DNA of 64,000 bases from Emiliania huxleyi CCMP1516 (GCF_000372725.1 NW_005201493.1:342475-406474), one strand, 5' to 3'; counted from the first letter of the stretch, positions 3,496 to 59,176 are shown. Numbers and translations are program-made. The notes: generated by a model from the sequence alone, not told the origin.

Positions 3496-3561
3496 TGGAC
3501 CTAACACAGGCAAACCGCGCGACTCCGTTAAAAAAGAATTTTCCTCCAAACTCCATCTAAC

Positions 3562-3635
3562 TGGGTGCGCTTCTTAGCTCCCCGGTCCTGGGCGTGCGGC
3601 TGCTGACTGCACTCCACTGCACTCCAAGTGCCGCT
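3562..3635 (+). repeat. Dispersed repeat with ctccaagtg subrepeats
   Basis: gggtgcgcttcttagctccccgg..ctgg...actgcactccaagtg recurs at ~48410-48480; related motifs at ~12215-12245 (-) and ~20477-20500. Confidence 0.65.
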
Positions 3636-3688
3636 CCAAACCAAACTCTAAAAAGAACGTTATAGGTATACCTCATCCGACTATTTTA

Positions 3689-8600: not shown

Positions 8601-9175
8601 TCGCCCTCGCCGAGGAAGAGCCGGCGGTCGCTCTCAAGGTCGTTGAAGGAGCGGAGGGCGTCGCAGAAGCCAGACCACCTGCGCAGCGGAGGCGGCGAAT
8701 GGGGCGGCGGAGAGGGAGAAAGGCGAGGAGAGGCGGTGGCGAGTGGTGCGTGGAAGGGGGCGGCGGAGAGGGAGAAGGGCGAGGAGAGGCGGTGGCGAGT
8801 GGTTGGTGGATGGGCGCACTTGTAAATCTCGTTGGAGTCGATCAGGCCGATTTTGCACCCAATCTTGCTCTCGAAAAGGACGGCGTCGATGGCGGCATCC
8901 CCTGTGCAGACGGCCGGCGGCTCCTCGCACTCGGTGACGCAGGTAAGTCGGCCCTCGTCGTTCAGCGAGCAGCACTCGTCTAGGGCGTTGATGTTGGAGC
9001 AGTGAGCTGCAGTGCTGCCGAGCCAGCCGGCGGCCGAGCAGCAGTAGCCGTCGGCGGGCGGAGGCCACGCGGACGAGCACGTCTCCCAGCCGGCGGGCGG
9101 GCACTGCGGCGTGGCGGTGACGGCGGATAGGATCGCGAGGAGGCTGGCGAGCTTGCTGTGGAGGCTGGCGAGCAT
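5630..9175 (-). CDS. Secreted or membrane-anchored chitinase: hevein-like domain, GH19, GH18, Pro-rich linkers, Cys-rich modules; one intron 8679-8819
   Basis: Signal peptide MLASLHSKLASLLAILSAVTA; CCSAAGWLGSTAAHC; GH19-like AQAMWESG and WWGRGAIQTTGPNNYG; GH18 motifs SLGGWT, FDGIDVDWEYP, NLMSYDY, GMMWWE; hydrophobic C-terminal segment. GT-AG intron rejoins EIYK|WSGFC. Confidence 0.93.
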   Translation of the reverse strand: MLASLHSKLASLLAILSAVTATPQCPPAGWETCSSAWPPPADGYCCSAAGWLGSTAAHCSNINALDECCSLNDEGRLTCVTECEEPPAVCTGDAAIDAVLFESKIGCKIGLIDSNEIYKCAHPPTTRHRLSSPFSLSAAPFHAPLATASPRLSPSPPPHSPPPLRRWSGFCDALRSFNDLESDRRLFLGEGDMSTALGLSNIAGLLAQAMWESGGEAPFTACDENDYPPSSPTASCTQRSDGELYHSLNDQPWACYVDPQMTMTAETWASWAPGPLKCEPGTGTEKCCWWGRGAIQTTGPNNYGLLQREVFSQVPSLSGIDLCTNPEAICQNDDAKWLGAIFYWANNVQGYGLEAEAATFDESLRKFVESGFNRAASVVAGADFASGTGGVVNNGYWGATPAENAGRLSNFDFIISEFLAAGMTIEGGGGGGGGGGATSPPPPSPPPPSPKPPPGGDGGGGGGGGGTPPRVVQYFSSWGIYQYGNRIPFKPSDLHLDKITHVHYAFFDVTSGCAVASMDPYADFDVVYPEVGMTWSSPHKGNVGALRILRDEQYPDLHLAFSLGGWTKSKFFSGCAADADKRAALVASAVDLLTEHDFDGIDVDWEYPACCGESDNQVDGNDWANYVLLLRELRAAMDERSPSKHKELTIAMGMNPRVSGVAPRAELGEVLDAINLMSYDYNGAWLPFVAHNAPLFEDPDGTAAGGAPEFNIDWGVQLWLEDVAPSKLVLGLPAYGRGWLGANQEYAQAPGENGAGSPVSGTYEEGLVSYYDIKASYDGNPAWTKGWNAASKVPFYYRSSPASFVSFDDEQSIAIKAAYAKEKGFAGMMWWEASDDKDADLLSAANSAWAAGGGGGGGGGGGGGGATSPPPSPPPPPSPPPPPSPPPPPSPPPPPSPPPPPPSPPPGAISDPPPPSPSPPPPPSPPPPPSPPPAGNGGGQCVDMPLTEGWSSTSCAALGASSCPGWPFEMMCGYCAHSIIGTACCRCGGGSGGGGGGGGGGGAPSPSPSPPPPPSPPPPSPPPPPSPPPPPPSPPPPPSPPPPSPLPPPSPPPPPSPPPPSPPPPPSPPPPPPSPPPAGTGGGQCVSTGFHSGYTDAWCDRNCNWTPSFCPAQYCTQDCLGGSGRRRLAESAPAPWSSNARAAVAAPLALAAVAGLAVYGRRRRASQASNLADIESCAEEA

Positions 9176-9330
9176 CGTGGAGTGGAGGCGTGTTGGTGGT
9201 GATTTAGCTTGCGTTTCTGGCCGCCGTTTGGAATCCACGTAAAGCGAGCCCGCATCCACGTAAAGCGAGCTTCTGCGGGCTCCGCGTTTTGCGGGTATTT
9301 CTTATGTTTTTTACACACACCAGTCGACTT

Positions 9331-9522
<192 letters not shown>

Positions 9523-9524
9523 CA

Positions 9525-9786
9525 AAACAACAACAAGGCCCACCACCGGCGGCCCCACGACGGCGTCCTCGCCGCCTGGGCGGACGCAATGCGCGCCCCG
9601 GCCAACGCGCCGGTCGTGCACGGTGACAAGGAGAAACCGGATCTCACCCGGCAGTACAATGAGGGGTACAAGACTGACCTCGCAGAACCCCATGCAGGGC
9701 CGGGAGGATGCGATGAAGTGAATGAAGTCAAGCTCTGGACACCCCTCCTCAAGACCTCCTCGACGGGCGTTGGCAACGCCTCGAGT
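9525..9786 (+). pseudogene. Degenerate coding fragment, possibly restriction-like endonuclease region of a non-LTR retrotransposon (left part)
   Basis: HHRRPHDGVLAAWADAM...YKTDLAE...DEVNEVKLWTP resembles the RH..V...PD...D/E-x-K layout. Similar text resumes after the insertion at 11441. Confidence 0.35.
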
Positions 9787-11440
9787 GCTGAGGGAGGGTG
9801 TAGAGGATGTAGAGTGTAGAGCGCTGTAGAGCTGTGGAGCTCTACATCCGCCGCGTGACGAGGCGCGTGCGTTGTAGAGCGGTGTAGAGGCGCTCTACAA
9901 CGTGAAATCTCTACAACAAACTCTACATCTGCATCAGCGGCGACGAGGCACGGTCGCTCTCCGACATGAGGCGCGTTGCACTTGCCAGTGCTGCCCTGGC
10001 CTTCTGTCTGCCCGCCCAATGGGTGGCAGGTGCCTCTGCTGCTGTGGCATGCCTCACGGCTGCGACTGGCCGGCGCCTCGGCGCGTCAGCTCGGCTTCGC
10101 ACGCCGTGCCGACGTCGAGCTCGTCGAGCCACAGGAGCGGGAGCTCGGCGCCAAAGTCGTCCGTGTAGAAGGTCAGCGCGGGCGAGCACGGGTCCGCCTC
10201 GCTATCGACCGACTCACTCTCGACCGGCTCGCTCCTCTCGGGCTCGCTCCTCGCGGGCTCCGCTGCCGCCTTTTTCGCCGGTGGCTCGGCCGCTGACGGC
10301 GATGACGTCCTGACGGTTCTCTTGCGTTTGTGCAGCCGCTGGCGGCGGTTCTGAAACCACACCTGCGCCATCGAATCGGAGGTTCAGACGCTGTGCGTGG
10401 AGCGGGCGGTCCGCTCGCAGCTCGCGCCTGCACTTGGCGCGGGTTCAGGTTGCACTCCTCCGCGAGACGTCGAGTGAGGAACGAATCGGGCGTGGTCTTG
10501 AGATCGAACGTGGCTTCCAGGATGGCGCGCTGCTCCGGCTTAAGTGACCTGGTGTAGTGAGGAGGGCGGTGGCATAAGTGATCGACGGTGACGAAGGCGG
10601 TGGCGTCGAGGGCGGAGGTGGAGTGGGTGGTGGCGGAGAGATTGGTGGCGATGAGGCAGTGGCGCAGAGGCGGCGACCTTGTCGATGGCCGCATCGGTTC
10701 TCCGGCTGATGATCAGGCCGTTCGGGACAAGGGAGCCGACTAGGAAGCCGACAGGAGTAAAGGGCACCACGGCTTGCCTTTTGAAACTTCGGAGTTAGCC
10801 GCCGATATTGCAACAGCCGCGTCCAAGCCCCGCAAGGAGAAAAAAGAAATATTCGAGCAACAACTTACGCCTGCGTGTCAGTGATAGTCAGGGCCGTCCA
10901 TCAGAGCTCTAGTAAGCTCGGAGACACCCCATTAGTGCGACTCGACCTCTTTGAGTCACTGCCTTCCCGGCGGGTTGGGAGAGAGATTTTTAGAAGCCAA
11001 CAAGAAATGTGTCACAGAAAGTGGTTTGGGCTCGGCAGCTTGTCGACTACCGGCCGGAGCCGGAGTCGGAACCGTAGCCGAGATGGTCGTCGAGGGTGTC
11101 GAATATGTTCTTGCGGGTTGGCTGTAGGAGCAGGCGGACATCGCTTCCAGGGAGGGGGGCGTGCTTCTGCTCACGCCCCCCCCCCCCGGGGAGGGGAGTT
11201 CCCCCGTTTTGAAGGCCTTTTCAACAAAATTTTCAGCAAAAGGGGGTTTTACTTCGGTTTACAACGCGGGGGCATTGTCACGGGGCGGAGTGAAAGCTTT
11301 AAGGTTTTACAGGGGTTTAAAACGCACGCGCCTTGTCCCGCAGGGGATATAGAGCTTTGCAGCTTTAAAGCGCTCCAGAGCGGTTTATTTACAGCTTTTA
11401 AAGGGCTTTACCCTTTACATCCTTTACCCCCTCCCTCAGC
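9787..11440. mobile_element. Non-autonomous TIR element, 1654 bp, 6-bp TSD TCGAGT, containing a homeobox gene
   Basis: Left end GCTGAGGGAGGGTGTAGAGGATGTAGAG..., right end ...CTTTACATCCTTTACCCCCTCCCTCAGC; inverted similarity extends over ~100 bp. tcgagt at 9781-9786 and 11441-11446. Confidence 0.78.
10054..10694 (-). CDS. Homeodomain transcription factor (non-TALE, Q50); GC-AG intron 10363-10427
   Basis: Spliced product HYTRSLKPEQRAILEATFDLKTTPDSFLTRRLAEECNLNPRQVQ|VWFQNRRQRLHKRKR, followed by an acidic tail. Confidence 0.88.
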
Positions 11441-11985
11441 TCGAGTGGAGGGTCCCCCCACTGTTTGGTACCACCCCCGGCCCATTTAAAGTCAGGGGGG
11501 GCCCCCCCCCCCCCCAGCAGCAGCGCTCTGCTGCTGGGGGGGTCGGGACCCCCCCCCCCCTAGCAGCAGGGATGACTTTAGATGTGCAGGGGGGGTACCG
11601 AGCAATGTGCGGCCGCTCGTGGCGGCACGCCCGCCTCCGTTGGCCACTCCTACGCCTTCGGCAGCACCGAGGAGAAGGCCCGCCGCGCCTGAACACATGG
11701 GCTGCAAGGCGCGCGGGCAGCCCGGCCAACCCTTCTCCCACAAGACCGGCCACGGCTACGTCAAGGCGCATCGCGGTTTCTACCACGACGCGATCTTTGT
11801 CAAGCGCAACAACTTTAACCTGCGGCTCCACGAGACGTTCGGCGGCGGCTTCTCGCCCACCGCCGTTCTCAAGGTAGCTGCGCCGCCTCGCGCGCAAGGT
11901 CGCGCGCGGCAGCGTCGACCGCACGGCCTACTCGCCCAAGTACTCGCTCTCTTTTATGTCCCACCATGGTCCATGCAGAGCGCAT
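11441..11985 (+). pseudogene. Degenerate retroelement-like coding fragment (right part)
   Basis: GGTPASVGHSYAFGSTEEKAR / GCKARGQ...GYVKAHRGFYHDAIFVKRNNFNLRLHETFGGGFSP, with frameshifts. 11450-11600 is homopolymer-rich and looks low quality. Confidence 0.35.
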
Positions 11986-12135
11986 CTCTCTCTCTGTTGT
12001 GCGAGGCGTGAACCGCGCCATTCGCTCTCACCTGGCAACCCTGTCTGCACGTCTCGCGCGCGCGTGAACAGGGCTCCAGGCCCCAAATGATGTGTGAGTG
12101 TTAGAGTTGTTTGGTATTGCTACCCCCCCCCACCA

Positions 12136-12139
12136 CACA

Positions 12140-12195
<56 letters not shown>

Positions 12196-12196
12196 C
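12136..12196. repeat. (GCAC)n microsatellite
   Basis: Directly visible. Confidence 0.95.
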
Positions 12197-12357
12197 ATGC
12201 ATACGCAGAGCACGAGCACTTGGAGCACTTGGAGCGCAGTCATTACCGCAGAATTCTCTCTCTCTCCAATGCTCCAATGGGGATGCACTGACGGTCAAAA
12301 CAAACTCTCTCTCTCTCTGACGGTCGGCCGTCAGAAAACACGCCTCCGTGGCTGGGG

Positions 12358-12550
12358 AAAAAAGAAAGAAAACGCACAACCCAAGGGAGGGAGGGATGGG
12401 AGGACGGCACGCCGCCACCACACAAGGATTTTAAGGAGAGGGGTGTGGTGCACTAGCCGTCGCCCACCCTTGGGCGTCCGCCTCTTCCTATCTCTCTTCG
12501 CAGTCTCTCTCCGATTCTCTCGCTGCGATCTTCGTGCCACCTCGCGGTCG
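12358..12550 (-). repeat. Dispersed repeat B (SINE-like), reverse copy
   Basis: Reverse complement aligns with 22035-22221 (gggtgggcgacggctag...ccttaaaatcc...ctcccatccctcccttgggttgt..tttctttc). A short 3' copy lies at ~30612-30658. Confidence 0.8.
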
Positions 12551-12607
12551 CCCCCTTCTCGAAAATAAATAAAAAATAAGCCAGTTTTTTTTCTTTTTTT
12601 GCACCTA

Positions 12608-15496
12608 ATGGGGATGCGGAGCACACGCCTGATCGCGGCGATCACCGCGCTAGCCGCGGCCCCCGCCGCCGCACTGACGGTCGGCCCGACGCTTCGGCCG
12701 GCGGCCGGCGCGGCGCAGCGCACCTCCGGCCGCGTCCGGGCCGTCGCAGAGCTCGTGCGCGCAGACTCGCCGCCGGCGATCGGCACCGCGCTGCCCGACT
12801 GCCCGCCGACGATATGGGACGCGGACGAGATCGACATCGAGGCGTGGCAGAAGCAGTACCGGGAGGAGGGTCTGCCCGTTTGCCCGATTGAGATCCACGC
12901 CACCGAGGCGGCCAACGCCGCGGGCGCCGCGTGGTTTGTCGAGCGGCGCGAGGAGCTCAAGGCGACGCTCGAGAAGCACGGGACGATCTGGTTCCGCGGG
13001 TTCGAGCTGATGAAGGATGCGGACGGGTTCCGCTCCTTCTGGGAGTCGCTCGACCTCGACCCGTGCCTCGACCCGCTCCACACCTCGGGCCTCCGCAAGT
13101 TCCTCTCAAAAGACGACGCGCTGTACGAGGAGGCGAGCGCCGCCACCTCTGCACGCCGCCGCCTCCCGCGCCGCCGCCTCCCACGCCACCGCCTCCCACG
13201 CCACCGCCTCACGCCGCCGCCGGCCTCGCCACCCTCGTCGCCGCTAGCCTCATACCCCACCGACGCCTCGCCGCCGCCACCACCACACTCGCCGCCGCTG
13301 CCGCCGCTGCTGCCGGAGGCGCAAACGAGGCAAGGCGTTGGGGGCGGCCTGGCGCCGCACTTCCAGCGACTCGCCCTGGAGGCGCCTCCGGCGACGAGGA
13401 GGGAGAAGAAGGGCTTGACCGCCGTTTGCCCGCCTCTCGCCACCGCCTCCCTCGCCGCCGCCACCGCCGGCCCCTCCGCCCCCCTCGCCTCCGCCCTCGC
13501 CGCCCCCACCCTCGCCGCCTCCCTCGCCACCGCCTCCCTCGCCGCCGCCACCGCCGGCCCCTCCGCCCTCGCCGCCTCCACCCTCGCCGCCTCCCTCGCC
13601 CCCGTCCTCACCACCGCCGCCGTCGCCCCCACCGCCTCTTGTGCCCGCAGGTCAACAAGGAGTCGCTCTCCATATCTCCATATATCTCCCCATATCTCCC
13701 CCCCGCAGGTCAACAAGGAGTCGCTCTCGAAGCACTACATCGGGCTGCACAACGAGAGCACGTTCAAGAAGACGGCAAAGGCGGGCGCCTTCGTCTGCTT
13801 CAAGCCCGCCACCGGCTGGGGAGGCGACTTCTTCCTCGCGGACGGCGAGGCAGTCTTCCGCGTGGAGCCCTCCAGGAGCCTTCCAGGAGCCTTCTAGGCG
13901 ACTTCTTCCTCGCGGACGGCGAGGCGATCTTCTGCGAGGAACCCTCCAGGAGCCTTCCAGGAGCCTTCTAGGCGAGTTCTTCCTCGCGGACGGCGAGGCA
14001 GTCTTCCGCGTGGAGCCCTCCAGGAGCCTTCCAGGAACCTTCTAGGCGACTTCTTCCTCGCGGACGGCGAGGCGATCTTCTGCGAGGAACCCTCCAGGAG
14101 CCTTCCAGGAACCTTCTAGGCGAGTTCTTCCTCGCGGACGGCGAGGCGATCTTCTGCGAGGAACCCTCCAGGAGCCTTCCAGGAACCTTCTAGGCGACTT
14201 CTTCCTCGCGGACGGCGAGGCGATCTTCTGCGAGGAACCCTCCAGGAGCCTTCCAGGAGCCTTCTAGGCGAGTTCTTCATCGCGGACGGCGAGGCGATCT
14301 TCCGCGATCTCGACCCCGAGGTGCTCCGCGAGATCATGAGGCGGAAGGTCCGCATCTCGGTGTCGAATCTCGATTTCGATTTGCTCGACAAGCTGCCGCC
14401 GCCGCAAAAGGAGGCGGCGATGCGCAAGCTCGAGCAGATGGTTGCGGACGGCGTCGCGCCAAAGTTCGACATGGACCTGGAGATGCTCTGGGGGACGGAC
14501 GGGCGCGCGATGCGGCTGCAGGCCGTGCAGAACGCGCAGTCTCCGGTCAACCGCCACCCCGCCACCGGCCGGCCGGCGTGGTTCTGCAACCTGCACAACC
14601 AGGCGCGCTTCCTGCGCGAGCGGAGGCCGTGCGGCACGCCCGAGGTATGCATGGCCGACCTCCACTTTGGCGACCCTTCTAGCACCCTCTGGGAGCCTTC
14701 CTGGAACCTTCTAGGTTGGCATGACCGACATCTACTTTGGCGACCTCTCGCTCATCCCCGGCGGGATGCTGCAGCACATCAACGAGGTGTCGGAGAAGAG
14801 ACGCTGTTCACACCTGCAGCTGTGAACAGGCGGGATGCTGCAGCACATCAACGAGGTGTCGGAGAAGAGACGCTGTTCACACCTGCAGCTGTGAACAGGC
14901 GAGATGCTGCAGCACATCAACGAGGTGTCGGAGAAGAGACGCTGTTCACACCTGCAGCTGTGAACAGGCGAGATGCTGCAGCACATCAACGAGGTGTCGG
15001 AGAAGAGACGCTGTTCACACCTGCAGCTGTGAACAGGCGAGATGCTGCAGCACATCAACGAGGTGTCCGAGAAGAACATCGTCACCGTGCCGATGCAGCC
15101 CGGCGAGGTGCTGCTCTGCGACAACTACCGCGTGCTGCACGGGCGTGACATCTTCGACGGCGACCTCCCCACACCTCCCCACACCTCCCCACACCTCCCC
15201 ACACACCCCCATCCCTCCCCCTCATACCTCCCCATCCCTCCCCCTCATACCTCCCCATACCTCCCCATTCCTCCCCATACCTCCTCGTACCTCCCCATAC
15301 CTCCCCCCACATCTCCCCACATCTCCCCACATCTCCCCATACCTCCCCATACCTCCTCATACCTCCCCACGTCTCCCCGAGAGCAGGCGACCGCCTGCAC
15401 GCCGTCTCCTGGTTCGGCGACGAGAAGCTGCAGGACGACAGCGCGGCCAACAAGCCGGGCGACCTGCTCAACGTCGTGCTCAACTCGGCCTTCTGA
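12608..15496 (+). CDS. TauD/TfdA-family (SyrP-like) Fe(II)/2-oxoglutarate dioxygenase, probably plastid-targeted; exons 12608-13132, 13709-13823, 14268-14644, 14715-14760, 15037-15159, 15387-15496
   Basis: HGTIWFRGF, IGLHNES (HxE), HPATGRPAWFCN and GEVLLCDNYRVLHGR all join in frame with these GT/GC-AG introns. N-terminal signal-peptide-like leader. Confidence 0.9.
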
Positions 15497-16456
15497 CGGG
15501 GGGCGCAGCCAGCTAGTGGGGGGGCGCGGTACGCCAAACGCCATGCGCATGCAGCATGGGCTCGAGGCCGAGCGTGGAACAGTGTGCAGTGAGAGACACT
15601 TGAGTCACTGGGCGAGTCTCTGTTTCACACTGTGCGAGCATGACGGCCGCTAGATAGCGAGTGACGGGCGCTGAGATGGACGGCCGGGCTGATGGATGTT
15701 CGTATTGACAGCACACGGACGATTAGAGTCGATACACGCACACGCACTAAATTATACACACACTGTCGACACACGACACGTACACGCAGCTCGCGCGCGC
15801 CATGTGGTGGACCGCGTGGGGCGGCTGCCGCCTGCCACCGGCCACGCCCGCCACGCGAGCCGCCGCACCGCCACTGGCTCCGGTGGGGAGCCTAGGCTCC
15901 GCACACCGCATCGGTCGGCCTCGTGGCGCAGCCACAGCAGCCTCTCTTTCGTGGCACTAATAGCTCGGACCGGTCCCCGCCCAAGCGAATACCGTCAGAA
16001 TTGGAGGCTCAGCACACGAACGGCACCAAGTGGTTTGCGGGCCAATTCAATTTGATGTACGACTGCTGGGTGACGATCGCCCGGGCCGAGAGATAGGTGG
16101 GGTAGGTCAACCCCGCGAACACGAGCAGCGCGTTGATTTGCGAGGGAGCGGGCATGGGACCTGCGTGCCGCGGGGTCTGCCGTGTGAGCATGCCGGTAGA
16201 TGGACAGGGCGGAACGAGAGGCGAGTCGAAGTGTGAAAGTGTGGGGCATCGAGGCGTGGGCGGGGCAGGGACCGCGAAGGGAGTCGATGAATGGCAGATT
16301 CCCACTGAAGATCTGCGGCGCATCATAGTGCCCGCGCCGCGTGACAGGATTGCTCACAGCTGTGTGAGCGCTGTCGGAGCAGTGTTTCGACACCGATGGT
16401 GTCCAGTCCGAGCCTGGCTGTTCTTCACCTTTCTACCTACCCACCTTCTCTCTCAC

Positions 16457-16682
<226 letters not shown>

Positions 16683-16784
16683 GCCGTGGGGCTCCTATCT
16701 TTTAGACGTGGAGTCGCGAGGGATGCCTGGCCCCTTGCCCCACCACCTTGCGTGTTGAGAAATTTACCTGGCCTTGCCTTAGGT

Positions 16785-17258
16785 CGCCCTCGCCGCGCTC
16801 GTCGGTCGCTCGCCGCAGCCTGGCTTTCGCTCCTCGGTGAGGCGACGCACACGCCAGAGGAGCCGCCGCCGCCCAACGCTTCGCAGCTGCTGGTCCCGAT
16901 GCCGCGTCCCGTGGTCAGCTTGGGCCTCGTGCAGCAGCTAGACGTCGCACTCGTCGCGCTCATCGCCGCCAGCGCAAACCTCTGGTGGTGCGGGCGGCGG
17001 CGCGCGGCAGCTTGGCTGCTCTGCGCCAGCTTCGTGGTCCGCACTTGGCTGCAACAGCCAATCACGGCACTTCTCCCAGTCGAAGCGCTGCCGCCCTTCG
17101 TCGACCTGCTCCGCTCCAACGCGCTGCGCTGCGCCTTCTTCGTGTTCGCGGCCCTCGTCGGCGCCTCCCCCCTCTCCTTCCGAGAAGGCACAGCCGCGCT
17201 CCTCGCTGTTGTGGCCGCGTGGCTCGTCCAGGCGTGTGTGTCCTGTACAGCCCCATGA
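16785..17258 (+). CDS. Possible exon of a membrane protein
   Basis: Several hydrophobic segments (VALVALIAASANLWW, LRCAFFVFAALVG, ALLAVVAAWLVQAC) after a ccttag acceptor. No clear start or family. Confidence 0.25.
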   Translation, partial: RPRRARRSLAAAWLSLLGEATHTPEEPPPPNASQLLVPMPRPVVSLGLVQQLDVALVALIAASANLWWCGRRRAAAWLLCASFVVRTWLQQPITALLPVEALPPFVDLLRSNALRCAFFVFAALVGASPLSFREGTAALLAVVAAWLVQACVSCTAP

Positions 17259-17699
17259 TGGTGGTCGCATTGCTGTTGCTTCCCCATGATGGTCGCGGCC
17301 GGCTCCCTCGCTGCGCGTGCTATCTGCTATCCCCCAGGGAAAGCGGGGAGTTCAGGGAGACCGCAGGTGGGGTGACACTGGCCACACCGCCCAACACGGT
17401 CGCACACACGATACACTCTAGTAGTAATATACCCGTGCGCGCATGGCATTGTCAGACAGAGGTGACACAGACACGTGTTGTCGTTTCACTTCCAGCATCC
17501 CCAGGATTAATCTTCCAGGGGCTCCTAAAAAAAACGCGCAGACAAAAACGCGGCATTTTTTAGCTTGGTCGTTTGTGGAATGGTGCTCTTGTGGTTGTGG
17601 ATTGTGCGGTGTGCGCCGGATTAGAATTTTATGAGAGACGCGCGCCCCCCGACTTTATCTTGGAAGCGATATGTGGAGCGCCCACCACACCAACCCCAG

Positions 17700-17910
17700 C
17701 CTCTGTCCATCCCCACACCCAACGGTTGCAGCGAATGCTACGTCCCGCCACCGACAGCAAGCCCGCCACAATGCCAGGGCTTCTGTGAAGCAAAGACGCA
17801 ACCCTGGGACGCCCGGTGCAGCTGGGCCGGCTGCGGCGGCTGCACCGAGTGCGGCGCCGAGTCCGAGTGCAAGCCGTTTTGTGAGGACAAGAGGCAGGGC
17901 TATGCAACTG
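17700..17910 (+). pseudogene. Fragment of a Cys/Trp-rich extracellular repeat
   Basis: CQGFCEAKTQPWDARCSWAGCGGCTEC...CKPFCEDKRQ is a repeated Cys module with no complete gene context. Confidence 0.4.
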
Positions 17911-18412
17911 TGACCAGTGTGTGCTGTCAACGCCTGAACCAGGTGTCAAATCTGCCGATGCGTGATCTGTGCGTGGGCTGCTCTGTGAGGGGTCCAGGCG
18001 TTGTCCGACGGGTAGGGGGTCTGTGCCCGGGCGGTGTCCGGTGCGGAGTCTCTCTCTGATCCCGCCTGTGCTGTTGGGTGCGAGGTCGTGGAAGCTTCGA
18101 TCCCAAGGGGGGGAGCTGATCCCACTCGGTAACCAACTCTCAGGGGCAGTAGGGGTGGGCGAGCTTCAAGCGCGCTCATCTCGATCGTCAAGGCGTCGCT
18201 ACGCGCGGTCTTCCGCGGGGGGAGCTTCGTCGACGGGTGCAGGACCGCAGCGCAGACAGTGCTGCGGCGATGCCTCCGGCTGGTGCGGCGAGTGTTTGCT
18301 GCTCGCTGCGATGGCGAAGAACTCGTCTCGTCACACACCAAGGGCTTATGCTCTGGCGAGACGTGAGGCGTATGCGCCCAGGAGGGGAGGGCGCATGCGT
18401 AACGACGCTGCT

Positions 18413-25051: not shown

Positions 25052-25528
25052 TCAGCGCAGATAGACGATGGTGCACCCGTTCCCCCCCTCCGGCTCGGGC
25101 GCATCCTCAAACCGCGCGACCAGGGGGTCCTCCGCGAGCCGCTCCCTCACGAAGCGGCGCATCTGGCCGGTGCCGCGGCCGGTGATGATGTACAGACAGC
25201 CGAGGTCCATCGCACGATCGAGCGCGTGCGCGACGTCGTCGCCAACCTCGTTGAGCCGCTTGCCGCGCAAGTCGAGCGTGTTGCTAGGGACGCGCACCGC
25301 GGTCACGCGGCGCTCGCGCTTCCCGCCCTTGCGACCCGCAGCCTTTGGGGGCGGCACCACCCTCTCGGCCTTGATGACCCTGGCCACCTCGGCCGCCTTC
25401 ACCTTCATCGTCAGCCCGCCGTACGCCACCGTCAGCTGCTTCCCCTTCCTCGACTCTACCAGCACCGGCTCCTCCCCGAGTCGACGCACGATCACCGAGT
25501 CGCCAGCCTCCGCCTCCTCCCGGCCCAC

Positions 25529-25580
<52 letters not shown>

Positions 25581-28500
25581 TCCGCCTCTGGCGCTCCCGC
25601 CACCCGCTTTCCAATCACAGACAGGCGGTGCAGCGTCGCCGAGGGGGTCGGCGCGGGGCCGTCGGCGCCAGCCTTGGCCGCGGCCACCAAGTCTGCGATC
25701 TGCGCGCGCGCGGCGTCGAGCTCGCGCTGCAGCGCCTCGCGCGACGCCGCCGCCTCCGCCGCGGCCGCCGCCTCCTGCTCCAGCCGGCGCGCCTCGAGCT
25801 GCCGCCGCGCCCCCTCAGCCTCGTCGCGCAAGCCGACCAGCTGCTGCCGCAGCGCCCGCTGCTCCCCCTGCTCGGCCTGCATCCGCTCGATCAGCTCGCC
25901 GACGTCCGCCTCGCCCGCACCTATTCACAGCCAGAGGTGTGAAGAGACGCTGTTCACAGCTCGCCGACGTCCGCCTCGCCCGCGCCGAGCGACTCGACCG
26001 CGTCGTCGAGCACGTCAGGCTGCAGCCCGAGCCGCCGCGCGATGGCAATGGCGTTGGAGCGGCCGGGGACGCCTAGAGGGCAATCTCGGGCGATCTCGGG
26101 TGATCTCGCGTGATCTCGCCGTCCTCTCGCGTTGTCGGACGCCCCAGAGGAGGCGGTAGGTTGGCGCGAGCGCGACGTCGTCGAACTCGACGCATGCGTT
26201 CTCGAAGGCGGCGTCCGAGTACCTGTTAGTGAGTGACCCTGCCGCTCCTCAGAGGCTCATGAACTGCTTCATTAGAGGGGGGAAGGGGGGGGGGGGAGGG
26301 GGTCCGGGTACTTGAGCGTCTTGAGCGACGAGTGGTGCGTCGTGCACATCGTCAGCCCCGCCGTCGCCTTGAGCCGCCGCAGCACCTATTCACAGCTAGA
26401 GGTGTGAAGAGACGCTGCTCACAGCCCGCCGTCGCCTTGAGCCGCCGCAGCACCTATTCACAGCTAGAGGTGTGAAGAGACGCTGCTCACAGCCCGCCGT
26501 CGCCTTGAGCCGCCGCAGCACCTATTCACAGCTAGAGGTGTGAAGAGACGCTGCTCACAGCCCGCCGTCGCCTTGAGCCGCCGCAGCACCGCCGCCCCGA
26601 GCGCAGACCCCTCCGTCGGATCGGTGCCGGCGCCAACCTACCAAAGGGGGCGGGTCGGTGCCGCCGTCCGCCTCGCCGAGCAGCACGAGCGAGATCAGCC
26701 GAGAGATTACCCGAGAGAGTACCCGAGAGTACCCGAGAGAGTACCCGAGAGTACCCGAGAGTACCCGAGAGTACCCGAGAGTAGCCGAGAGTAGCCGAGA
26801 GTACCCGAGAGTAGCCGAGAGTACCCGAGAGTACCCGAGAGTACCCGAGAGTACCCGAGAGTACCCGAGATTAGCCGAGAGTGCCCAAGAGTACCCGAGA
26901 GTACCCGAGAGTACCCGAGAGTACCCGAGAGTACCCGAGAGTACCCGAGAGTACCCGAGAGTACCCGAGAGTACCCGAGAGTACCCGAGAGTACCCGAGA
27001 GTACCCGAGAGTACCCGAGTGTACCCGAGAGTGCCCGAGAGTGCCCGAGATTGCCCGAGATTGCCCGAGATTGCCCGAGATTGCGCCTCGTCGAGCAGTA
27101 CGAGCGACTCGCAGCTCACGCGCTGCAGGATGGCGCGCACCCGCGCCACGTGCGCCGAGAAGGTCGAGAGGGACTGCACCTATTCACAGCTGCAGGTGTG
27201 AAGAGACGCTGTTCACAGCTCGCCGAGAAGGTCGAGAGGGACTGCACCTATTCACAGCTGCAGGTGTGAAGAGACGCTGTTCACAGCTCCGAGAAGGTCG
27301 AGAGGGACTGCACCTATTCACAGCTGCAGGTGTGAAGAGACGCTGTTCACAGCTCGCCGAGAAGGTCGAGAGTGACTGCACCAGCGACTGGTCGTCGCCT
27401 ATGCGGAGGCGCAACCTCGGCTGATCTCGGGTGGATCTCGGCTGATCTCGCGTGCGACGACTGGCCGTCGTCGCCGATGTCTGCCATCACGGCGTCAAAC
27501 CAGGGCACGGCGGCGACCGCCGACGGCGAGGCGTCGGCCGAGAGAGAGCGGCCACGCGGCTCTGAGCAGACGGGCCACAGTCCAGCCTGCGATTTGGGGG
27601 GGGGTGGGGGGAGATGGGGTGGCCACGGGGGGGGGAGATGGGGGGAGAGATGGGGGGAGAGATGGGGGGAGATGGGGGGAGATGGGGGGAGAGATGGGGG
27701 GAGATGGGGGGAGATGGGGGGAGATGGGGGGAGATGGGGGGAGATGGGGGGAGATGGGGGGAGATGGGGGGAGATGGGGGGAGATGGGGGGAGATGGGGG
27801 GAGATGGGGGGAGACGGGGGGAGATGGGGGGAGACGGGGGGAGACGGGGGGAGATGGGGGGAGGTGAGGCCAGCCTTGGCCATCAGCACTGCCAGCCCGA
27901 GGTTCTTCAGTGCCACTGTCTTCCCGCCGGTGTTCGGCCCGGTGATCACGATCGCGCGCACGTGCGGCGGGAGCTCGTAGTCCTGCTCAAACGACGACCT
28001 TACTCAAGGGCTGATTGAGGGCTGATTAAGGGCTGATTAAGGGCTGATTAAGGGCTGATTAAGGGCTGATTAAGGGCTGATTAAGGGCTGATTAAGGGCT
28101 GATTAAGGGCTAGTTAAGGGCTAGTTAAGGAAGCTCGTAGTCCTGCTCAAACGACGACCTTACTCAAGGGCTGATTGAGGGCTGATTAAGGGCTAATTTA
28201 GGGCTAGTTAAGGAGGCTCGTAGTCCTGCTCAAACGACGACCTTACTCAAGGGCTGATGAAGGGCTGATGAAGGGCTGATTAAGGGCTGATTAAGGGCTG
28301 ATTAAGGGCTGATTAAGGAGGCTCGTAGTCCTGCGCCACGACATCGCCCCGCTCGACCGGCTCGGAGGGCGCAGGCTGCAGCAGCAGAGGGTGCAGCAGC
28401 CCCTGCAGTGCCACGCCCTCCGCCCGGTGGTCCGAGAAGCGGACGGGCACTCCGCCCACGGCGGCGGCGTACCGCGCGCGCGCGGCGGCGAGGTCGACCT

Positions 28501-29470
28501 TCGTCACGGCGCTGTGCAGCGCCTCGAGCTCGTGAGCGACGGCAGGCGCGCCCACTCGCTTGGAGAGCGCCTGCAGCACCGCCCGCACGTACGTCATCTC
28601 TCGGCCGTCTCTCGGCCGTCTCTCGGCCGCCTAGCGCCTGCAGCACCGCCCGCACGTAAATCATCTCTCGGCCGTCTCTCGGCAGTCGAACGCCTGCAGC
28701 ACCGCCCGCACGAGCGTTTGCTCGCGCCTGGCGAGCTGGCGCAGCTTTGTGTTTGCGCCCTCGACCTGCGGGGAGAGGTGGGGAGGTGCGGGGAGAGACA
28801 GGGAGAGATTGGGAGATATGGGGGCTGGGCCCGCCAACCTGCACGGAGATATGGGGAGATATGGGGAGATATGGGGAGATATGGGGAGATATGGGGGGAT
28901 ATGGGGAGATATGGGGGGATACGGGGGATGGGCTCTCCAACCTCCTTGGGCTCGATAAAGAGCGTCTGCCCCGAGCCAGACACGTCGCGCACGACGCCCG
29001 GCACGCGGTGCTTCTGCTTGGCCACCACCTGCGAGGCGGAGCGGTCCGCTCTCCCCCCAAGACGAACGCGTCATCATGTATCCCCATCTCTCCCCATCTC
29101 TCCCCATCTCTCCCCACATCTCCCCATATCTCAGGCCGCCTGCAGGACGAAGCGGTCCGCGCGCAGCGTCGGCAAACGGTTCGCCAGCACCGAGTCGCCC
29201 TTCTTCGCCACCAGCTCCGCCAGGCTCTTGCGCACCGCCGCCGCCAGCTCTCGCTTGGCGAACCGCACCTCGCCGAGCCCGTCCGAGGCGGAGTCGCGCA
29301 CGACGCCTAGCGGGGACGTGTCTCGGACATGTCGCGGACGTGTCCCGGAACGTCTCCGAGGCGGAGTCGCGCGTCTTTCGCCGGCGTCGTCGACTGCCTC
29401 GTCAATGGCGAGCTTGAGAGCCGCCTGCACGCCGACCCCGTCGAAGAGGGCCGGGAGCCTATGCGGCACG

Positions 29471-29504
<34 letters not shown>

Positions 29505-30027
29505 TGCCGCTGCTGCCTTGCGCATCGTCGAGCGAGCGCATCTTCTTGACGAGAGAGGCTGCGGCCCCGAGGGAGGTGGATATGGAGGCGAGTTGCGGGC
29601 CCTCGAGCACCGCTCCCTTGGACGCCAGCGAGACCAGTGGCAGCCAGTCGGTGAAGCCCTTGAGCTCGAGAGGCACGCCGAGGCTCCTCTCGATGGCGAA
29701 CGCCTCTGCCGTCTCCTCGAGCAGCGCCTCCGACTCGGCGCGCTCGCGCGGCAGCGGGATGCCAGCGCCGTACAGCTCGCGCGAAAAGGCCGTCGACGCG
29801 TGCTGAGCGACGTGCGCGGAGAGCCGAGGCCACTCGAGCAGGTCGAGCGTTGCCACGGCTGGGTCGGCAGCGGTGGGCGCGGGAGAGCTCTCTTCGGCAG
29901 CGGCGGGAGCTGCGGTGGACTCGGCGGTCGCTCCAAGCAGGACCGCTGCAGGACGCTGGGCCGGTTTAAGCTGAGGCGCGAGCTGCCGAGGCGCGAAGGC
30001 GGCTGCCACGGCTGCCACGAAAAGCAT
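25052..30027 (-). CDS. mutS2: MutS2 (MutS ATPase plus Smr domain), probably plastid-targeted, about 12-13 introns
   Basis: [82 protein letters not shown]; Smr LDLRG...IITGRGTG...[10 protein letters not shown]; leader [13 protein letters not shown]. Confidence 0.95.
26700..27082. repeat. Intronic 10-bp tandem repeat (GAGAGTACCC)n
   Basis: Directly visible. Other 10-11-mer arrays at 15165-15380, 27610-27865, 28005-28318, 28815-28930, 43015-43140 and 52036-52210. Confidence 0.97.
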
Positions 30028-45400: not shown

Positions 45401-48095
45401 GAGATCTTCCGCGTCCAGGGCGGCGAGATACGGGGAGATCTGTGGAGATACGGGGAGAGAGGGGGGAGATCTTCCGCTTCTAGGAGGTACGAGCCGCGCA
45501 GCGTGCGCGCGGCGCCGCCGAGCTGGGCGAGCCGCCACTGCGGGTTGGTGCGCCACTCAAGCGACGATCGGACCTGGGCCGCCGCGAGATTGCTCGAGAT
45601 TGCTATCTCGCGCGCGAGATTGCCCGAGATGAGGCGTCCGCTCTCGGAGAGGGCGGCCGAGATGCAGAGAGAGAGAGGGGGAGGGGGAAGAGAGCGAGGT
45701 GTGTGCGTGCGTGTGAGGAGAGAGGTGATCGAGAGAGGCGCGAGTGGCCGTGGGAGGCGAGAGAGGGGCTGTGGTGGCGAGATCAGCCGAGATGCATGAG
45801 TTGGCCGTGGGAGGCGAGAGAGGGGCTGTGGTGGCGAGATCAGCCGAGATGCATGAGTTGGCCGTGGGAGGCGAGAGAGGGGCTGTGGTGGCGAGATCAG
45901 CCGAGATGCATGAGTTGGCCGTGGGAGGCGAGAGAGGGGCTGTGGTGGCGAGATCAGCCGAGATGCATGAGTTGGCTGTGGGAGGCGAGAGAGGGGCTGT
46001 GGTGGCGAGATCAGCCGAGATGCATGAGTTGGCCGTGGGAGGCGAGAGAGGGGCTGTGGTGGCGAGATCAGCCGAGATGCATGAGTTGGCCGTGGGAGGC
46101 GAGAGAGGGGCTGTGGTGGCGAGATCAGCCGAGATGCATGAGTTGGCCGTGGGAGGCGAGAGAGGGGCTGTGGTGGCGAGATCAGCCGAGATGCATGAGT
46201 TGGCTGTGGGAGGCGAGAGAGGGGCTGTGGTGGCGAGATCAGCCGAGATGCATGAGTTGGCCGTGGGAGGCGAGAGAGGGGCTGTGGTGGCGAGATCAGC
46301 CGAGATGCATGAGTTGGCTGTGGGAGGCGAGAGAGGGGCTGTGGTGGCGAGATCAGCCGAGATGCATGAGTTGGCCGTGGGAGGCGAGAGAGGGGCTGTG
46401 GTGGCGAGATCAGCCGAGATGCATGAGTTGGCTGTGGGAGGCGAGAGAGGGGCTGTGGTGGCGAGATCAGCCGAGATGCAAGAGAGACTGAGAGGGCCTG
46501 CCGCCACCGCAACACCGCTCAGCTCGTGTAGGAAGGAAGGAAGGAAGGAAGGAAGGAATGAATGAGAACGAATGAAAACTAAAGTACGCGGACCTGTCGC
46601 CACTGCGTCTCGCTCAGCTCGTACCGCGACCGCTCCTCGTCCGCGAGCGGCTCGAGCAGCTCGCCCAGGGTTCGGTACTGTGGAGGTATGGTACCAGGCG
46701 GGGTGCCATGGTACCCTACCCCCACAGTACCCGAACCCAAAGCTCGGTGCGCCGCGCCGCGCGCCGCGGGCAGCGACGGCCACCGAAACGCGGCGGCGGC
46801 GGCGGCGTCGCGGAAGGCGGCGAGGTAGAGGCGCTCGCGGTGCTGCGGCACGAGCGCGGCGGCGTTGGCGAGCTGAAGGCGGCAGTGGTACCTAGAAAAA
46901 GAAAAAAACGTGGCGCCGGCCCTAGAAAAGGAACGCGTGTTTTTCTTTTTCAGGCGGCAGTGATACCCGGCGCGGGTGAGCGCGTGGACGATGATGTGCA
47001 GTGCGTGGCCGTTGTCGACGCGGAGAAGGTTCGGCACATTCTCAAGCAGCAGCGCCGCCGGCCTGCATCCACAGACACGGGCTCCGCCCCTCAGCCTCCC
47101 TCCTCTCTCCTCCCACCGGCCTCCAACAAGACAATCTCTCTCCGGACTCCCTCGAAGGAGCTCGAGGAGGGCCTTGTGTGTGTGCGGAGGTCCGGAGTCC
47201 TCGTCTAGGATTGACCCCCCTGCCTGACGGTGTGGTGTTGGTGCCGCTCTGACTAGTCGATCTCCACGGCGAGCTACAGCGAGCTCCAATGAGAGTCCCG
47301 AGAAGGTGCGCCGTGAAGGTTCCGTACGTGTCTGAAGGTTCACTGTGCTGTCGTGCGATTTCGGCCCCCCGAGGCGGTGCTCTTTGTGTGAAGCTTCCGT
47401 GAAGGTGTCCCGAGAAGGTTCCGTGAAAGTTCGCCTAGCGCCGCCGGCCTGCAGCGCGACGCGACGCGCACAATCTCGAAGAAGAGGTCGCCGCGCGCAT
47501 CGCCCAGCCCGCGCTGCTCGCCGCTCCGCGAGAAGGACTGGCACGGGAAGCCCGCCGTCAGCAAGTCGTGCGCAGGCAGGTCCTCGTCCGGGACCTCCGT
47601 GATGTCGCCCAGAGGCGCGTCGCCAAAGTTCCGCTCGTACGTCGCGGCGGCGCACGGGTCGATCTCGGACGCAAAGACACAGCGGCCGCCGAGGCCGTCG
47701 AGCGCCAGTCGGAAGCCTCCCACGCCGGCGAAGAGCTCGGCGTAGCGGAAGCGCGGCGGCGGAGCCGGCGATGCGGCGGCGGCGGCCGCCGCCGCTGGCG
47801 AAGGCGCGGCGGCGGCTGAGACGTGCCGGTGACCAGTGGCCCAGCGCACCGCGCCGTCGCGAAGGAGGGCGGCAAGCGGAGCCGGGACCAACGACTCGGC
47901 ATCCGAGCCAAACGCGTCGAGCGCCCGTGCGCCCTCCGGCGCGACGGCAACGGCGAGGTGCTCGCAGTCGTACTCGTGCACCTTTGTCCGCTTCTTGCGC
48001 CACTGCCGTTCGTCCAGCGCCTTGATCACGGTCTGGAGGTGGCGCTTTGGCGCGACGACAGCACCAACAGCGACACCGGAGGCTGCTCCAGGCAT
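42416..48095 (-). CDS. C5-cytosine DNA methyltransferase, multi-exon, interrupted by two gaps and a duplicated contig
   Basis: Motif I ELFAGVGGF, II ASEID, III GDITE, IV LTAGFPCQSFS, VI LLENVPNL, VIII PQHRERLY, IX ECARLQG..FP, X LYTQLGNAVCVPVV. Confidence 0.92.
43232..44695. other. Gap-flanked contig duplicating 45117-46722 (probable assembly redundancy or second allele)
   Basis: N100 at both ends; sequence is essentially identical apart from minisatellite copy number (about 7 versus 13). Confidence 0.85.
45744..46482. repeat. Intronic 57-bp minisatellite, about 13 copies
   Basis: Unit gagttggccgtgggaggcgagagaggggctgtggtggcgagatcagccgagatgcat. Confidence 0.97.
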
Positions 48096-51952: not shown

Positions 51953-53101
51953 TCAGCCATAGAGCCGCTCCGCAGCCGCCTCCGCCTCGCGCAGCTGCGC
52001 CGCGGCCGGCTCGTCGAGGCACCAGTGCGTCCGCCTAGGAAAGGTCCAGGAAAGGTCTAGGAAAAGTCTAGGAAAGGTCGTCGAGGCACCAGTCCGTCCG
52101 CCCGGCCGCAAGGACGAGCCCTCTAGGAAACGTCTAGGAAATGTCTAGGAAATGTCTAGGAAATGTCTAGGAAACGTCTAGGCAATGTCTCGGAAAGGTC
52201 TAGGAAAGTCCGCCCGGCCGCAAGGACGAGCCCGGCCGGCACCGGCTCGTCGGGCTGCGCGGCAAAGGCGGCGCGCACGGCACTCGCCTTGCTCCCGCCC
52301 GTGACCACGAAGAGGGCGAGCCGCGCGGCGTTGATGGCGGGCAGAGTGAGCGTCACGCGACAGGCCGGCGGCTTTGGCGAGTCGTCCACGTACGTGACCG
52401 CGCGCCCCGTCTCGCAGAGCACCGCATGCGCCGGGAAGAGGGAGGCGGTGTGGCCGTCAGGGCCCATCCCCAGCAGCACCTGTTCACAGCTAGAGGCGTG
52501 AAGAGACGCTGTTCACGGTGTGGCCGTCGGGGCCCATCTCCAGCAACACCTGTTCACAGCTAGAGGCGTGAAGAGACGCTGTTCACGGTGTGGCCGTCGG
52601 GGCCCATCACCAGCAGCACCGCGTCCAACCGCAGCGGCGGGGCCGACTCGGCCTGGGAAGCCGCCGCCGCCGCGCCTCCGCCCGCCGCCGCCGCCGCCTC
52701 ACGGAGCGCCGCGAGAAGCTTCTCTTCGTACAGCTCTGCCGCCTGCGGCAGAGGCAGGGCGGCGGCAACACCGACCGCTTGCACGCTGCCCATCCCCGCC
52801 GGCTCGAGAAAGCGGCGGCGCCACTCCCCGAGGCTGGAGTCTGGGTGCGACTCGGCCACATGCCGCTCGTCCGCGAGGAAGACGCGCCAGCGCGAGAGCT
52901 GGTCGCGTGGGGCGGCGGCGAGGAGCTCGGGCGCCAGCAGCGCCGGGATCGAGCCTCCGGAGACGGCGACGACGAACACGCCTCGCTCCGCGATCGCAGC
53001 GGCCGCAGCCTAGGGTGAGGGTATGGGTGGGGGTGAGGGTGAGGTTGAGGTTGAGGGTGAGGGTGAGGGTTAGGGGTTAGGGTTAGGGTTAGGGGTTAGG
53101 G

Positions 53102-53133
<32 letters not shown>

Positions 53134-56010: not shown

Positions 56011-56039
56011 CGGCACGCCAGGCCGAGGGTCTACGACGG

Positions 56040-59145: not shown

Positions 59146-59176
<31 letters not shown>

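What the first reader, a model, noticed from the sequence alone, without database searches (positions are those of the whole stretch)
13651..15386. Introns built as 'copy of next exon start + short filler + AG': a candidate intron-gain mechanism
Seen: 13651-13708 repeats gtcaacaaggagtcgctctc; 13824-14267 is exactly 6 x 74 bp of exon copy plus filler; 14645-14714 opens with a diverged ~31-nt exon copy; 14761-15036 is 4 x 69 bp; 15160-15386 repeats gcgacc. The same layout occurs in MutS2 (25921-25985; 26386-26589 = 3 x 68; 27180-27381; 27983-28330), the methyltransferase (46892-46966 and others) and the PAC4-PGL gene (52480-52619 = 2 x 70). The donor is just the exonic GT/GC duplicated like a long variable target-site duplication, and the filler supplies the acceptor. 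Inference: staggered-break repair or a retro-like insertion creates self-removing introns, which would also explain the many GC donors. Copies range from identical to diverged, like an age series. This differs from classic introners, which have uniform bodies and short fixed TSDs.
Basis: partly seen in the sequence, partly recalled or inferred. Interest (0 to 1): 0.88.

Follow-up and report, generated by a model that had tools for sequence, protein, structure and literature searches.

The report
Introns built from long target duplications
In the bloom-forming alga Emiliania huxleyi, many introns consist of a 20-35-base copy of the neighbouring exon plus a short repeated insert and are spliced out cleanly, which points to a likely undescribed copy-and-insert process that probably created thousands of introns and would explain the alga's unusual GC splice donors.

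Summary
The window is Emiliania huxleyi. RNA contigs of two studies remove the TauD-gene introns; 13651-13708 is the 3' end of a larger intron, 13133-13708. One filler is a shared 40-nt body, present in 5 window introns. In marine metagenome contigs, 82 of 112 independent sites of this body carry an upstream copy of the downstream exon (control 2 of 108). Unit length is 68 +/- 3.5 nt, the duplication about 26-28 nt, the 3' end fixed at AG|G[CTA], the 5' join microhomology-rich, and most sites lie in sense-strand coding sequence. Other fillers (10-/11-mers, AT-rich) share the geometry. ORFs of relatives on long contigs read through all five TauD positions, supporting gain, but some units sit at older introns, and a graded age series is not shown. 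Best reading: introner-like insertion at nicks about 27 nt apart, likely target-primed reverse transcription; enzyme unidentified. The body may already be catalogued as '37-nt' Emiliania Introners; the long duplication was not found in print.

The parts
12614..15496 (+). TauD/TfdA-family dioxygenase gene, 6 exons (12614-13132, 13709-13823, 14268-14644, 14715-14760, 15037-15159, 15387-15496), 430 aa
   Evidence: open frame after splicing; exon 3 is 100% identical to P0001, E. huxleyi CCMP1516; Pfam TauD; RNA joints
13133..13708 (+). GC-AG intron, 576 nt; its last 58 nt (13651-13708) are a unit with a 20-nt copy of the next exon start, a 10-mer filler and a 7-nt copy of the older acceptor
   Evidence: RNA joint skipping 576 nt in X9 and X11
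13824..14267 (+). GC-AG intron of 6 x 74-nt units: about 39-nt exon copy plus 11-mer filler ending TAG
   Evidence: RNA joint skipping 444 nt in X9 and X11
14645..14714 (+). GT-AG intron, single 70-nt unit: 31-nt exon copy (5 mismatches) plus 11-mer-family filler
   Evidence: skipped in RNA contig of X11, present in DNA contigs of X2 and X5
14761..15036 (+). GC-AG intron of 4 x 69-nt units: exon copy plus the shared body (loop-inverted variant)
   Evidence: skipped in RNA contig of X9
15160..15386 (+). GC-AG intron, 227 nt, 10-mer array, only 6-9 nt of exon copy left
   Evidence: RNA joint skipping 227 nt in X9 and X11
25052..30027 (-). MutS2-like gene with 13 introns; 11 of 13 show a 5' or 3' exon copy above the control threshold
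25921..25985 (-). single 65-nt unit: 29-nt exon copy plus shared body
26386..26589 (-). 3 x 68-nt units: 29-nt exon copy (0 mismatches) plus shared body
27180..27381 (-). three units (202 nt): 27-nt exon copy plus shared body; 27180-27219 is one complete 40-nt body with 11-nt direct repeats at its ends
26638..27086 (-). layered intron: 10-mer array, then a 21-nt copy of the upstream exon end and a 21-nt copy of the downstream exon start
27983..28330 (-). GA-AG intron of three units with 11-mer arrays
28571..28693 (-). mirror layout: two units ending in a 19-nt copy of the upstream exon end
46892..46966 (-). 75-nt intron of the methyltransferase gene, 15-nt exon copy plus T-rich filler
   Evidence: splicing inferred
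52480..52619 (-). 2 x 70-nt units: 34-nt exon copy plus shared body
   Evidence: splicing inferred

Best explanation
These spliced introns are likely the scars of an insertion process that cuts the two DNA strands of a gene about 27 bases apart, copies a short repeated body of about 40 bases into the gap, probably by target-primed reverse transcription of a small RNA, and so duplicates the 20-35 bases between the cuts. Shown: the layout exon copy + body + exon, unit about 68 nt; precise splicing at TauD (RNA) and at locus L064 (protein); one body family with a fixed 3' end and 5' microhomology; neutral decay of the intronic copy. Inferred: the two offset cuts; priming at the body's 3' end; an RNA template and a reverse transcriptase acting in trans. 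An insertion in an exon survives when the duplication starts with G|GC, G|GT or G|GA (donor) and the body ends in AG, or when the duplication itself holds AG|GY (mirror layout). Insertions that span an existing splice junction are also tolerated and give layered introns. Unequal exchange between the two exon copies would later expand a unit into 2-6 tandem copies.
For: 82 of 112 unique body sites have a significant upstream copy of the downstream exon (cross-pair null 1%, same-locus control 2 of 108); G[CTA] follows the AG at 104 of 112; G precedes the donor at 69 of 82. Unit 67.8 +/- 3.5 nt, body median 40, n = 60; duplicated length median 26, 10-90% range 20-31. Fixed 3' end: 36 of 41 further copies found by the 5' half of the body end in the same register before G[CTA]. 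5' join: 18 of 24 sites with overlap >= 0 share 2 or more bases against 33% in simulation, P about 5e-5. 57 of 82 sites score as sense-strand coding, 9 antisense, 16 unscored. Mismatches fall evenly on codon positions (20/14/24, P = 0.31), 41 of 58 would change the protein, and they run AT to GC as in the species' measured mutation bias. Relatives' ORFs cross all five TauD positions. Removing 8 such introns from L064 reproduces 448 of 449 residues of the intron-free protein P0162.
Against: No reverse transcriptase, master element or source RNA was found (Rfam: no match at gathering score; viral contigs: no real match). No poly(A) tail. The duplication is longer than the 7-20 nt typical of L1 insertions (recalled). 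The 10-/11-mer fillers occur in both orientations and many bodies are unrelated, which one RNA template cannot explain. Only 6 of 60 sites keep 7 or more unexplained bases between copy and body, so carry-over of a parent intron's flank is not supported. 32 of 56 sites had a negative overlap and were not in the microhomology count. 30 of 112 sites show no significant copy. Some units are at positions apparently shared with other haptophytes (K|VYAVG, E|ARKSP). No empty-site allele was seen.
Confidence: 0.5

Rival explanations
1. Same anatomy, made by DNA repair: paired nicks or a staggered break about 27 nt apart are filled with a patch copied from abundant intron repeats elsewhere in the genome by a slippage-prone polymerase (polymerase-theta-like end joining), as proposed on a smaller scale for Daphnia.
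For: Bodies are internally periodic (10, 11, 14-15, 29 nt), of many unrelated kinds including AT-rich and telomere-like, and some occur in both orientations; microhomology at the join; staggered-break intron gain is described in Daphnia (PMC4202315, passages).
Against: Patch capture should give variable ends, yet 36 of 41 unselected copies end in one register; the 5' edge of the consensus is also sharp at -40; Daphnia repeats are 4-12 bp.
Confidence: 0.3
2. A non-autonomous DNA element of about 40 nt is moved by a transposase or integrase that makes an unusually wide, variable stagger.
For: Defined 40-nt body with 11-nt terminal direct repeats and internal inverted repeats; most classified introners are DNA transposons (PMC12130899 section 6); an 11-12-nt match to the body end lies at the edge of an inverted-repeat-flanked element in the window (60285-60301).
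Against: No terminal inverted repeats; 5' end varies from 24 to 55 nt with microhomology; duplication length varies from 14 to 40; the element's ORFs match no Pfam family and no Atlas cluster.
Confidence: 0.1
3. The introns are old; local slippage duplicated the exon edge into them and ectopic conversion spread a good acceptor cassette among them, so there is remodelling but little gain.
For: Layered units at junctions; two L064 positions where relatives' ORFs begin at the same residue (P0165, P0166, P0173 at K|VYAVG; P0172 at E|ARKSP).
Against: P0002/P0122 (83% identical, 19-kb contigs) cross all five TauD positions and have a break elsewhere; P0005 (15 kb) crosses all five and P0076 (120 kb) the first four; P0164, P0167, P0188 and P0184 (contigs up to 8-17 kb) run as single ORFs across the L064 positions; most single units consist of nothing but copy plus body (51 of 60 with fewer than 4 unexplained bases).
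Confidence: 0.08
4. Assembly artefact.
For: The window has gaps and a duplicated segment near 43330-46700; array copy numbers differ between assemblies.
Against: Units occur in DNA contigs of independent runs and at 112 sites in metagenome assemblies; copies carry mismatches with a biological spectrum; RNA removes them precisely.
Confidence: 0.02

Closest known systems
Introners that co-opt the 5' splice site from the target-site duplication (Symbiodinium; Polarella classes 4, 5, 6, 8, 10; Aureococcus)
   Same: Element carries the AG, the duplication gives a GT/GC/GA donor; other classes take both sites from the duplication; length-neutral splicing (10.1101/2020.10.14.339549, passages; PMC9860276, passages).
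   Different: Their duplications are fixed at 3-9 nt and many have terminal inverted repeats; here the duplication is 20-35 nt, variable, about 40% of the intron, with a variable microhomology-joined 5' end and many unrelated periodic bodies.
Emiliania huxleyi Introner families listed in Gozashti et al. 2022 and 2025 supplements
   Same: Same species; five families averaging 70 or 37 nt, 653 copies, 82% in genes; 2025 fam24 is noted 'co-opt 5', carry 3'', '10bp terminal direct repeats'. 37 nt is exactly the distance from the GT inside the 40-nt body to its AG, so those families may be this body read from GT-biased gene models (inference; their sequences were not seen).
   Different: TSD given as '?', 'N', or 2-4 nt; the pipeline needs similarity at both intron ends, which the true 68-nt introns lack. 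RNA removes the whole unit, not only the body.
Staggered double-strand-break intron gain in Daphnia pulex
   Same: Direct repeat of the adjacent exon at the far end of the new intron; repeated events at one site (PMC4202315, passages).
   Different: Repeats 4-12 bp, source of most inserts unidentified; here 20-35 bp, shared bodies, narrow unit size.
Intron gain by tandem genomic duplication of an AGGT-bearing segment (PMC3265369, PMC4974935; search listing only)
   Same: Exon sequence duplicated; donor and acceptor taken from the two copies (mirror layout here).
   Different: There the intron is the duplicate alone and cases are rare; here a foreign body is added and the event is recurrent.
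Non-LTR retrotransposon / SINE insertion by target-primed reverse transcription (recalled)
   Same: Variable duplication, fixed 3' end, variable 5' end, 5' microhomology.
   Different: No poly(A) tail, no identified partner enzyme, 40-nt body, longer duplication, strong exon-sense placement.

Membership tests
Introner (intron-generating transposable element) | Family of similar sequences forming introns at many unrelated sites | tested here: met
   40-nt body at 112 unique sites and 5 window introns
Introner (intron-generating transposable element) | Similarity between introns reaches both splice boundaries (operational definition of PMC9860276) | tested here: not met
   consensus collapses 5' of position -40 (0.71 to 0.34); the first 26-28 nt are locus-specific
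Introner (intron-generating transposable element) | Precise removal by splicing | tested here: met
   RNA joints at TauD; 448 of 449 residues at L064
Introner (intron-generating transposable element) | Short fixed TSD (3-9 nt) and/or terminal inverted repeats | tested here: not met
   duplication 14-40 nt, median 26; ends are direct repeats
Introner (intron-generating transposable element) | Absent at orthologous positions in relatives | tested here: inconclusive
   5 of 5 TauD positions crossed by P0002/P0122 and P0005; 2 of 8 L064 positions appear shared with some relatives; read from ORF calls, DNA not seen
Introner (intron-generating transposable element) | Presence/absence polymorphism within the species | tested here: inconclusive
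   no empty site among the joints shown for X2 and X5 at one gene (15 shown, 166 not shown) or among 8 locus pairs
Introner (intron-generating transposable element) | Autonomous partner element | not testable with these tools
   no whole genome held
Non-LTR retroposition (TPRT) | Variable-length target duplication | tested here: met
Non-LTR retroposition (TPRT) | Fixed 3' end, variable 5' end with microhomology | tested here: met
   36 of 41; body 24-55 nt; 18 of 24 vs 33%
Non-LTR retroposition (TPRT) | Poly(A) or simple-repeat tail | tested here: inconclusive
   no poly(A); the bodies themselves are periodic and could be tails
Non-LTR retroposition (TPRT) | Source RNA and reverse transcriptase sharing the 3' end | not testable with these tools
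   Rfam gave no match at gathering score in 6 loci; no genome to search
Tandem genomic duplication of AGGT | Intron consists only of duplicated exon sequence | tested here: not met
   a foreign body of about 40 nt is present
Daphnia-type staggered-break gain | Exon-matching direct repeat of 4-12 bp with an insert of no shared family | tested here: not met
   repeat 14-40 nt, shared bodies

The most novel reading that the evidence does not exclude
E. huxleyi has a dedicated pathway, unlike any classified transposon, that copies short intron-derived RNAs into transcribed exons at nicks about 27 nt apart; it built most of the species' present introns, with the target supplying the 5' half of each, and it accounts for both the majority-GC donors and the 10-11-base intron repeats.
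Probability: 0.3. Interest if true: 0.95.

Novelty: new variant of a known kind. Interest (0 to 1): 0.85.

Why it matters
How new introns arise is a long-standing question, and current surveys find only elements similar at both ends, so a class whose 5' 40% is rewritten from each target is invisible or mis-bounded. Each intron carries its own clock (intron copy against exon), which makes the timing of gain directly measurable. A rough extrapolation from 5 introns in 64 kb gives 2,500-18,000 sites for the one body family in a 98-Mb haploid genome (genome size from PMC10290126). It offers a mechanism for the 60-65% GC donors reported in this species, so far ascribed to genome GC content (PMC4028052, passages), and it explains a recurring gene-model error (duplicated peptides such as in P0161). 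A 27-nt stagger with a 40-nt insert points to an unidentified enzyme.

Tried and rejected
Whole-genome test: no assembly held. First repeat scan was too strict and missed known cases; replaced. Viral contigs: no match to the 23-nt pattern; one 16-nt match that does not extend. Rfam: three weak matches, all below gathering score. Folding: none of 6 sequences (4 units, 2 bodies) folds better than shuffles, z from -1.41 to +0.48, so no structured RNA is claimed. Empty-site paralogues: 6 junction probes of 82 seemed unbroken, all within their own locus and read as long copies or arrays. Donor improvement by mutation: mismatches are not concentrated at +3 to +6. CpG decay or error-prone copying as cause of the mismatch bias: not needed, since the species' spontaneous spectrum is GC-biased. 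Carry-over of a parent intron's flank: 6 of 60 only. Age series: not distinguishable from one age class. The inverted-repeat-flanked element at 53904-60264 as master: no Pfam or Atlas hit. Read et al. 2013 (the genome paper) is not held; its report of 10-11-bp intron repeats is recalled only, and its supplement could bear on novelty. Earlier scan findings: none. Reads from further strains at a second gene were not obtained, so polymorphism stays open.

Full report
Source and check. Exon 3 of the focal gene is 100% identical to P0001, a TauD/TfdA-domain protein of Emiliania huxleyi CCMP1516. Contigs of two RNA runs from different studies (X9, RNA by guess; X11, polyA metatranscriptome) skip 576, 444 and 227 nt at introns 1, 2 and 5; X11 skips the 70-nt intron and X9 joins 14760 to 15037. 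The spliced frame is open for 430 aa. One correction: 13651-13708 leaves as part of 13133-13708. DNA contigs of X2 and X5 carry the single units. Removing 13 hand-placed introns opens the MutS2-like frame to its stop. Of 29 introns I annotated in six window genes, 19 exceed the 99th percentile of 812 cross-paired controls for a copy at the intron start and 24 for either layout; donors are GC 18, GT 9, GA 2. The chitinase and homeobox introns show no significant copy.

A shared body. Five window introns in three genes end in the same sequence. A scan of metagenome contigs with its 23-nt 3' part returned 122 stretches from 19 of 64 parts of the collection, held as 121 loci. They gave 127 arrays; 15 were dropped as duplicates or too near a contig end, leaving 112 unique sites, two of which (L005, L072) look like chance matches in other organisms but stayed in the count. 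At 82 of 112 the sequence upstream of the body aligns to the downstream exon above the 99th percentile of all cross-pairs; the same-locus control gave 2 of 108. G[CTA] follows the AG at 104 of 112; at the 82, the copy starts GC 34, GT 26, GA 9, other 13, preceded by G at 69; 73 are single, 8 double, 1 triple. G|GN sites in flanking exon sequence run GC 313, GG 157, GA 108, GT 87, so GT is over-used, GA under-used and GG nearly unused, as expected if splicing filters insertions. I assume these contigs are E. huxleyi or close kin; this was checked by protein for L064 only.

Anatomy. For 60 sites (82 minus five loci that are parts of unrecognised arrays and those whose first two bases are not a matching GT/GC/GA), unit length is 67.8 +/- 3.5 nt (59-74) and body median 40 (24-55); the consensus over 112 sites drops from 0.71 to 0.34 at position -41. 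The body has 11-nt direct repeats at its ends, a 29-nt period, and a variant with the loop between two inverted hexamers reversed (4 of 60). With gaps allowed, the duplicated exon length has median 26 (10-90%: 20-31; range 14-40); 9 of 60 leave 4 or more bases unexplained. In the 38 fully explained sites, copy and body lengths are anticorrelated (r = -0.64; partly boundary noise). Of 41 further copies found by the 5' half alone, 36 end in the same register before G[CTA]; at least two of the other five are reverse views of the inverted variant. Of 56 non-inverted sites, 24 have overlap >= 0 at the 5' join; 18 of these share 2 or more bases, against 33% in 20,000 simulated joins run through the same code. 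A codon model trained on window genes (122 of 134 training pieces right in-sample; 28 of 186 non-coding pieces pass; one training ORF was in the wrong frame) scores 57 of 82 sites as sense coding, 9 antisense, 16 below threshold; phases 29/16/12. Metagenome assembly favours genic DNA, but all 5 window copies are also in sense exons.

Many bodies, one geometry. A scan for spaced direct repeats in 276 kb (111 loci after removing 10, plus the window) found 150 units; 92 could be spliced with the donor at the start of the copy, 26 near its end, 19 in the middle, 13 not at all (strand was not fixed, so classes are approximate and some are the reverse view of another). Fillers include several 10- and 11-mer arrays in both orientations, AT-rich sequences and telomere-like repeats, with most units 60-80 nt. 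In L064, a PPIP5K gene, removing 8 introns (donors GA, GC, GT; copies up to 34 nt; one mirror type of 32 nt) reproduces 448 of 449 residues of P0162, an intron-free ORF on a 3.7-kb contig that I take to be a transcript.

Which copy changes, and when. At 43 coding sites mismatches fall 20/14/24 on codon positions (P = 0.31) and 41 of 58 would be non-synonymous; AT-to-GC differences are 39 of 392 against 15 of 815 for the reverse, the direction measured in mutation-accumulation lines (PMC7486954, abstract and passages). The intronic copy therefore decays neutrally. Mean divergence is 5.5%, about 1e8 generations at the published rate (biased young because old copies fail detection). The counts fit a single Poisson mean (P = 0.31; 19 zero-mismatch sites against 17 expected), so a burst is as good as an age series. 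In several arrays the first unit differs while later units match the present exon (14761, 27381, L008/L090), which fits later expansion by unequal exchange.

Gain or remodelling. No eukaryote genome context was available, so I used ORFs called on long contigs. P0002/P0122 (83% identical over the query exon; 19-kb contigs; clustered with a Tisochrysis-named member) begin with unrelated residues, then run unbroken across all five E. huxleyi positions; P0124/P0125 and P0076 (120 kb) break at INE|V, where E. huxleyi has no intron; P0005 (15 kb) and P0023 (9 kb) are full length. For L064, four relatives on contigs up to 8-17 kb are single ORFs across the region, but P0165, P0166 and P0173 start at K|VYAVG and P0172 at E|ARKSP, both unit-bearing positions in E. 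huxleyi. So new positions are common and old junctions are hit too. That these are intron-blind gene calls on DNA is inferred. No empty allele was seen within the species.

Mechanism. Copy-body-copy with both layouts is one event type, an insertion with a long target duplication. Fixed 3' end, variable microhomology-joined 5' end and variable duplication match target-primed reverse transcription (recalled) best; the variety and periodicity of bodies match patch repair of staggered breaks better. I put 0.85-0.9 on insertion with duplication, 0.5 on a reverse-transcription route, 0.3 on DNA patch repair, 0.1 on a transposase.

Literature. Ten full-text searches found no description of long exon copies in E. 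huxleyi introns. Read as passages or named sections: PMC9860276 (passages, section 15, supplement rows), PMC12130899 (section 6, supplement rows; files 13-14 not searched), PMC4202315, PMC4028052, PMC10290126, PMC7486954, PMC11782384 (no mention of Emiliania) and 10.1101/2020.10.14.339549 (passages; its supplements were not seen). E. huxleyi is already listed as Introner-bearing, with families of 70 and 37 nt and unresolved or 2-4-nt TSDs; 37 nt equals the span from the body's internal GT to its AG, so the body is probably known under wrong boundaries. The 2013 genome paper was not available.

Verdict. Real, genome-wide, spliced; a new variant of introner-like gain with an unusually long duplication and an unidentified enzyme. 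Interest 0.85.

Noticed in passing
window 53904-60264: 6.4-kb segment bounded by 700-bp inverted repeats (96% identical) with long ORFs (55793-57898, 57412-59574) that match no Pfam family; the first gave no Atlas hit; an 11-12-nt match to the body end lies at 60285-60301.
   Followed up: partly
window 36015-36110: Intergenic palindromic stretch sharing 11-14-nt words with the 40-nt body.
   Followed up: no
window 53010-53135 (-): Likely GA-AG intron filled with telomere-like hexamer repeats and no exon copy; similar fillers with copies in L065 and L067.
   Followed up: no
window 13824-14290; P0154: The second CCMP1516 protein P0154 reads DFFL where P0001 and relatives read EFFI; DFFL is what the intronic copies encode, suggesting exchange between intron copy and exon or a gene-model choice.
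   Followed up: no
window 15037-15075: The duplicated segment of intron 4 spans INE|V, where two relatives appear to have an intron that E. huxleyi lacks.
   Followed up: no
L071, minus strand near 1000-1125: An 11-mer array with its own flanking duplication sits inside the exon copy of a 40-nt-body intron: a nested insertion.
   Followed up: no
window 43330-46700: About 1.3 kb of the methyltransferase gene appears twice between N gaps with 7 and 13 copies of a 57-nt minisatellite; probably allelic mis-assembly.
   Followed up: no
P0161, P0074: Public gene models read through units and contain duplicated peptides (EDYIEEDYIE; repeated MLQHINE), showing how these introns corrupt annotation.
   Followed up: partly
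window 10363-10427 (-): Homeobox gene intron at QVQ|VWF without a significant exon copy; a conserved homeobox intron position by recall.
   Followed up: no
L046:564, L064:3523, L076:444: Fillers with 14-15-nt period related to the 29-nt-period body, suggesting bodies evolve by repeat-unit change.
   Followed up: no
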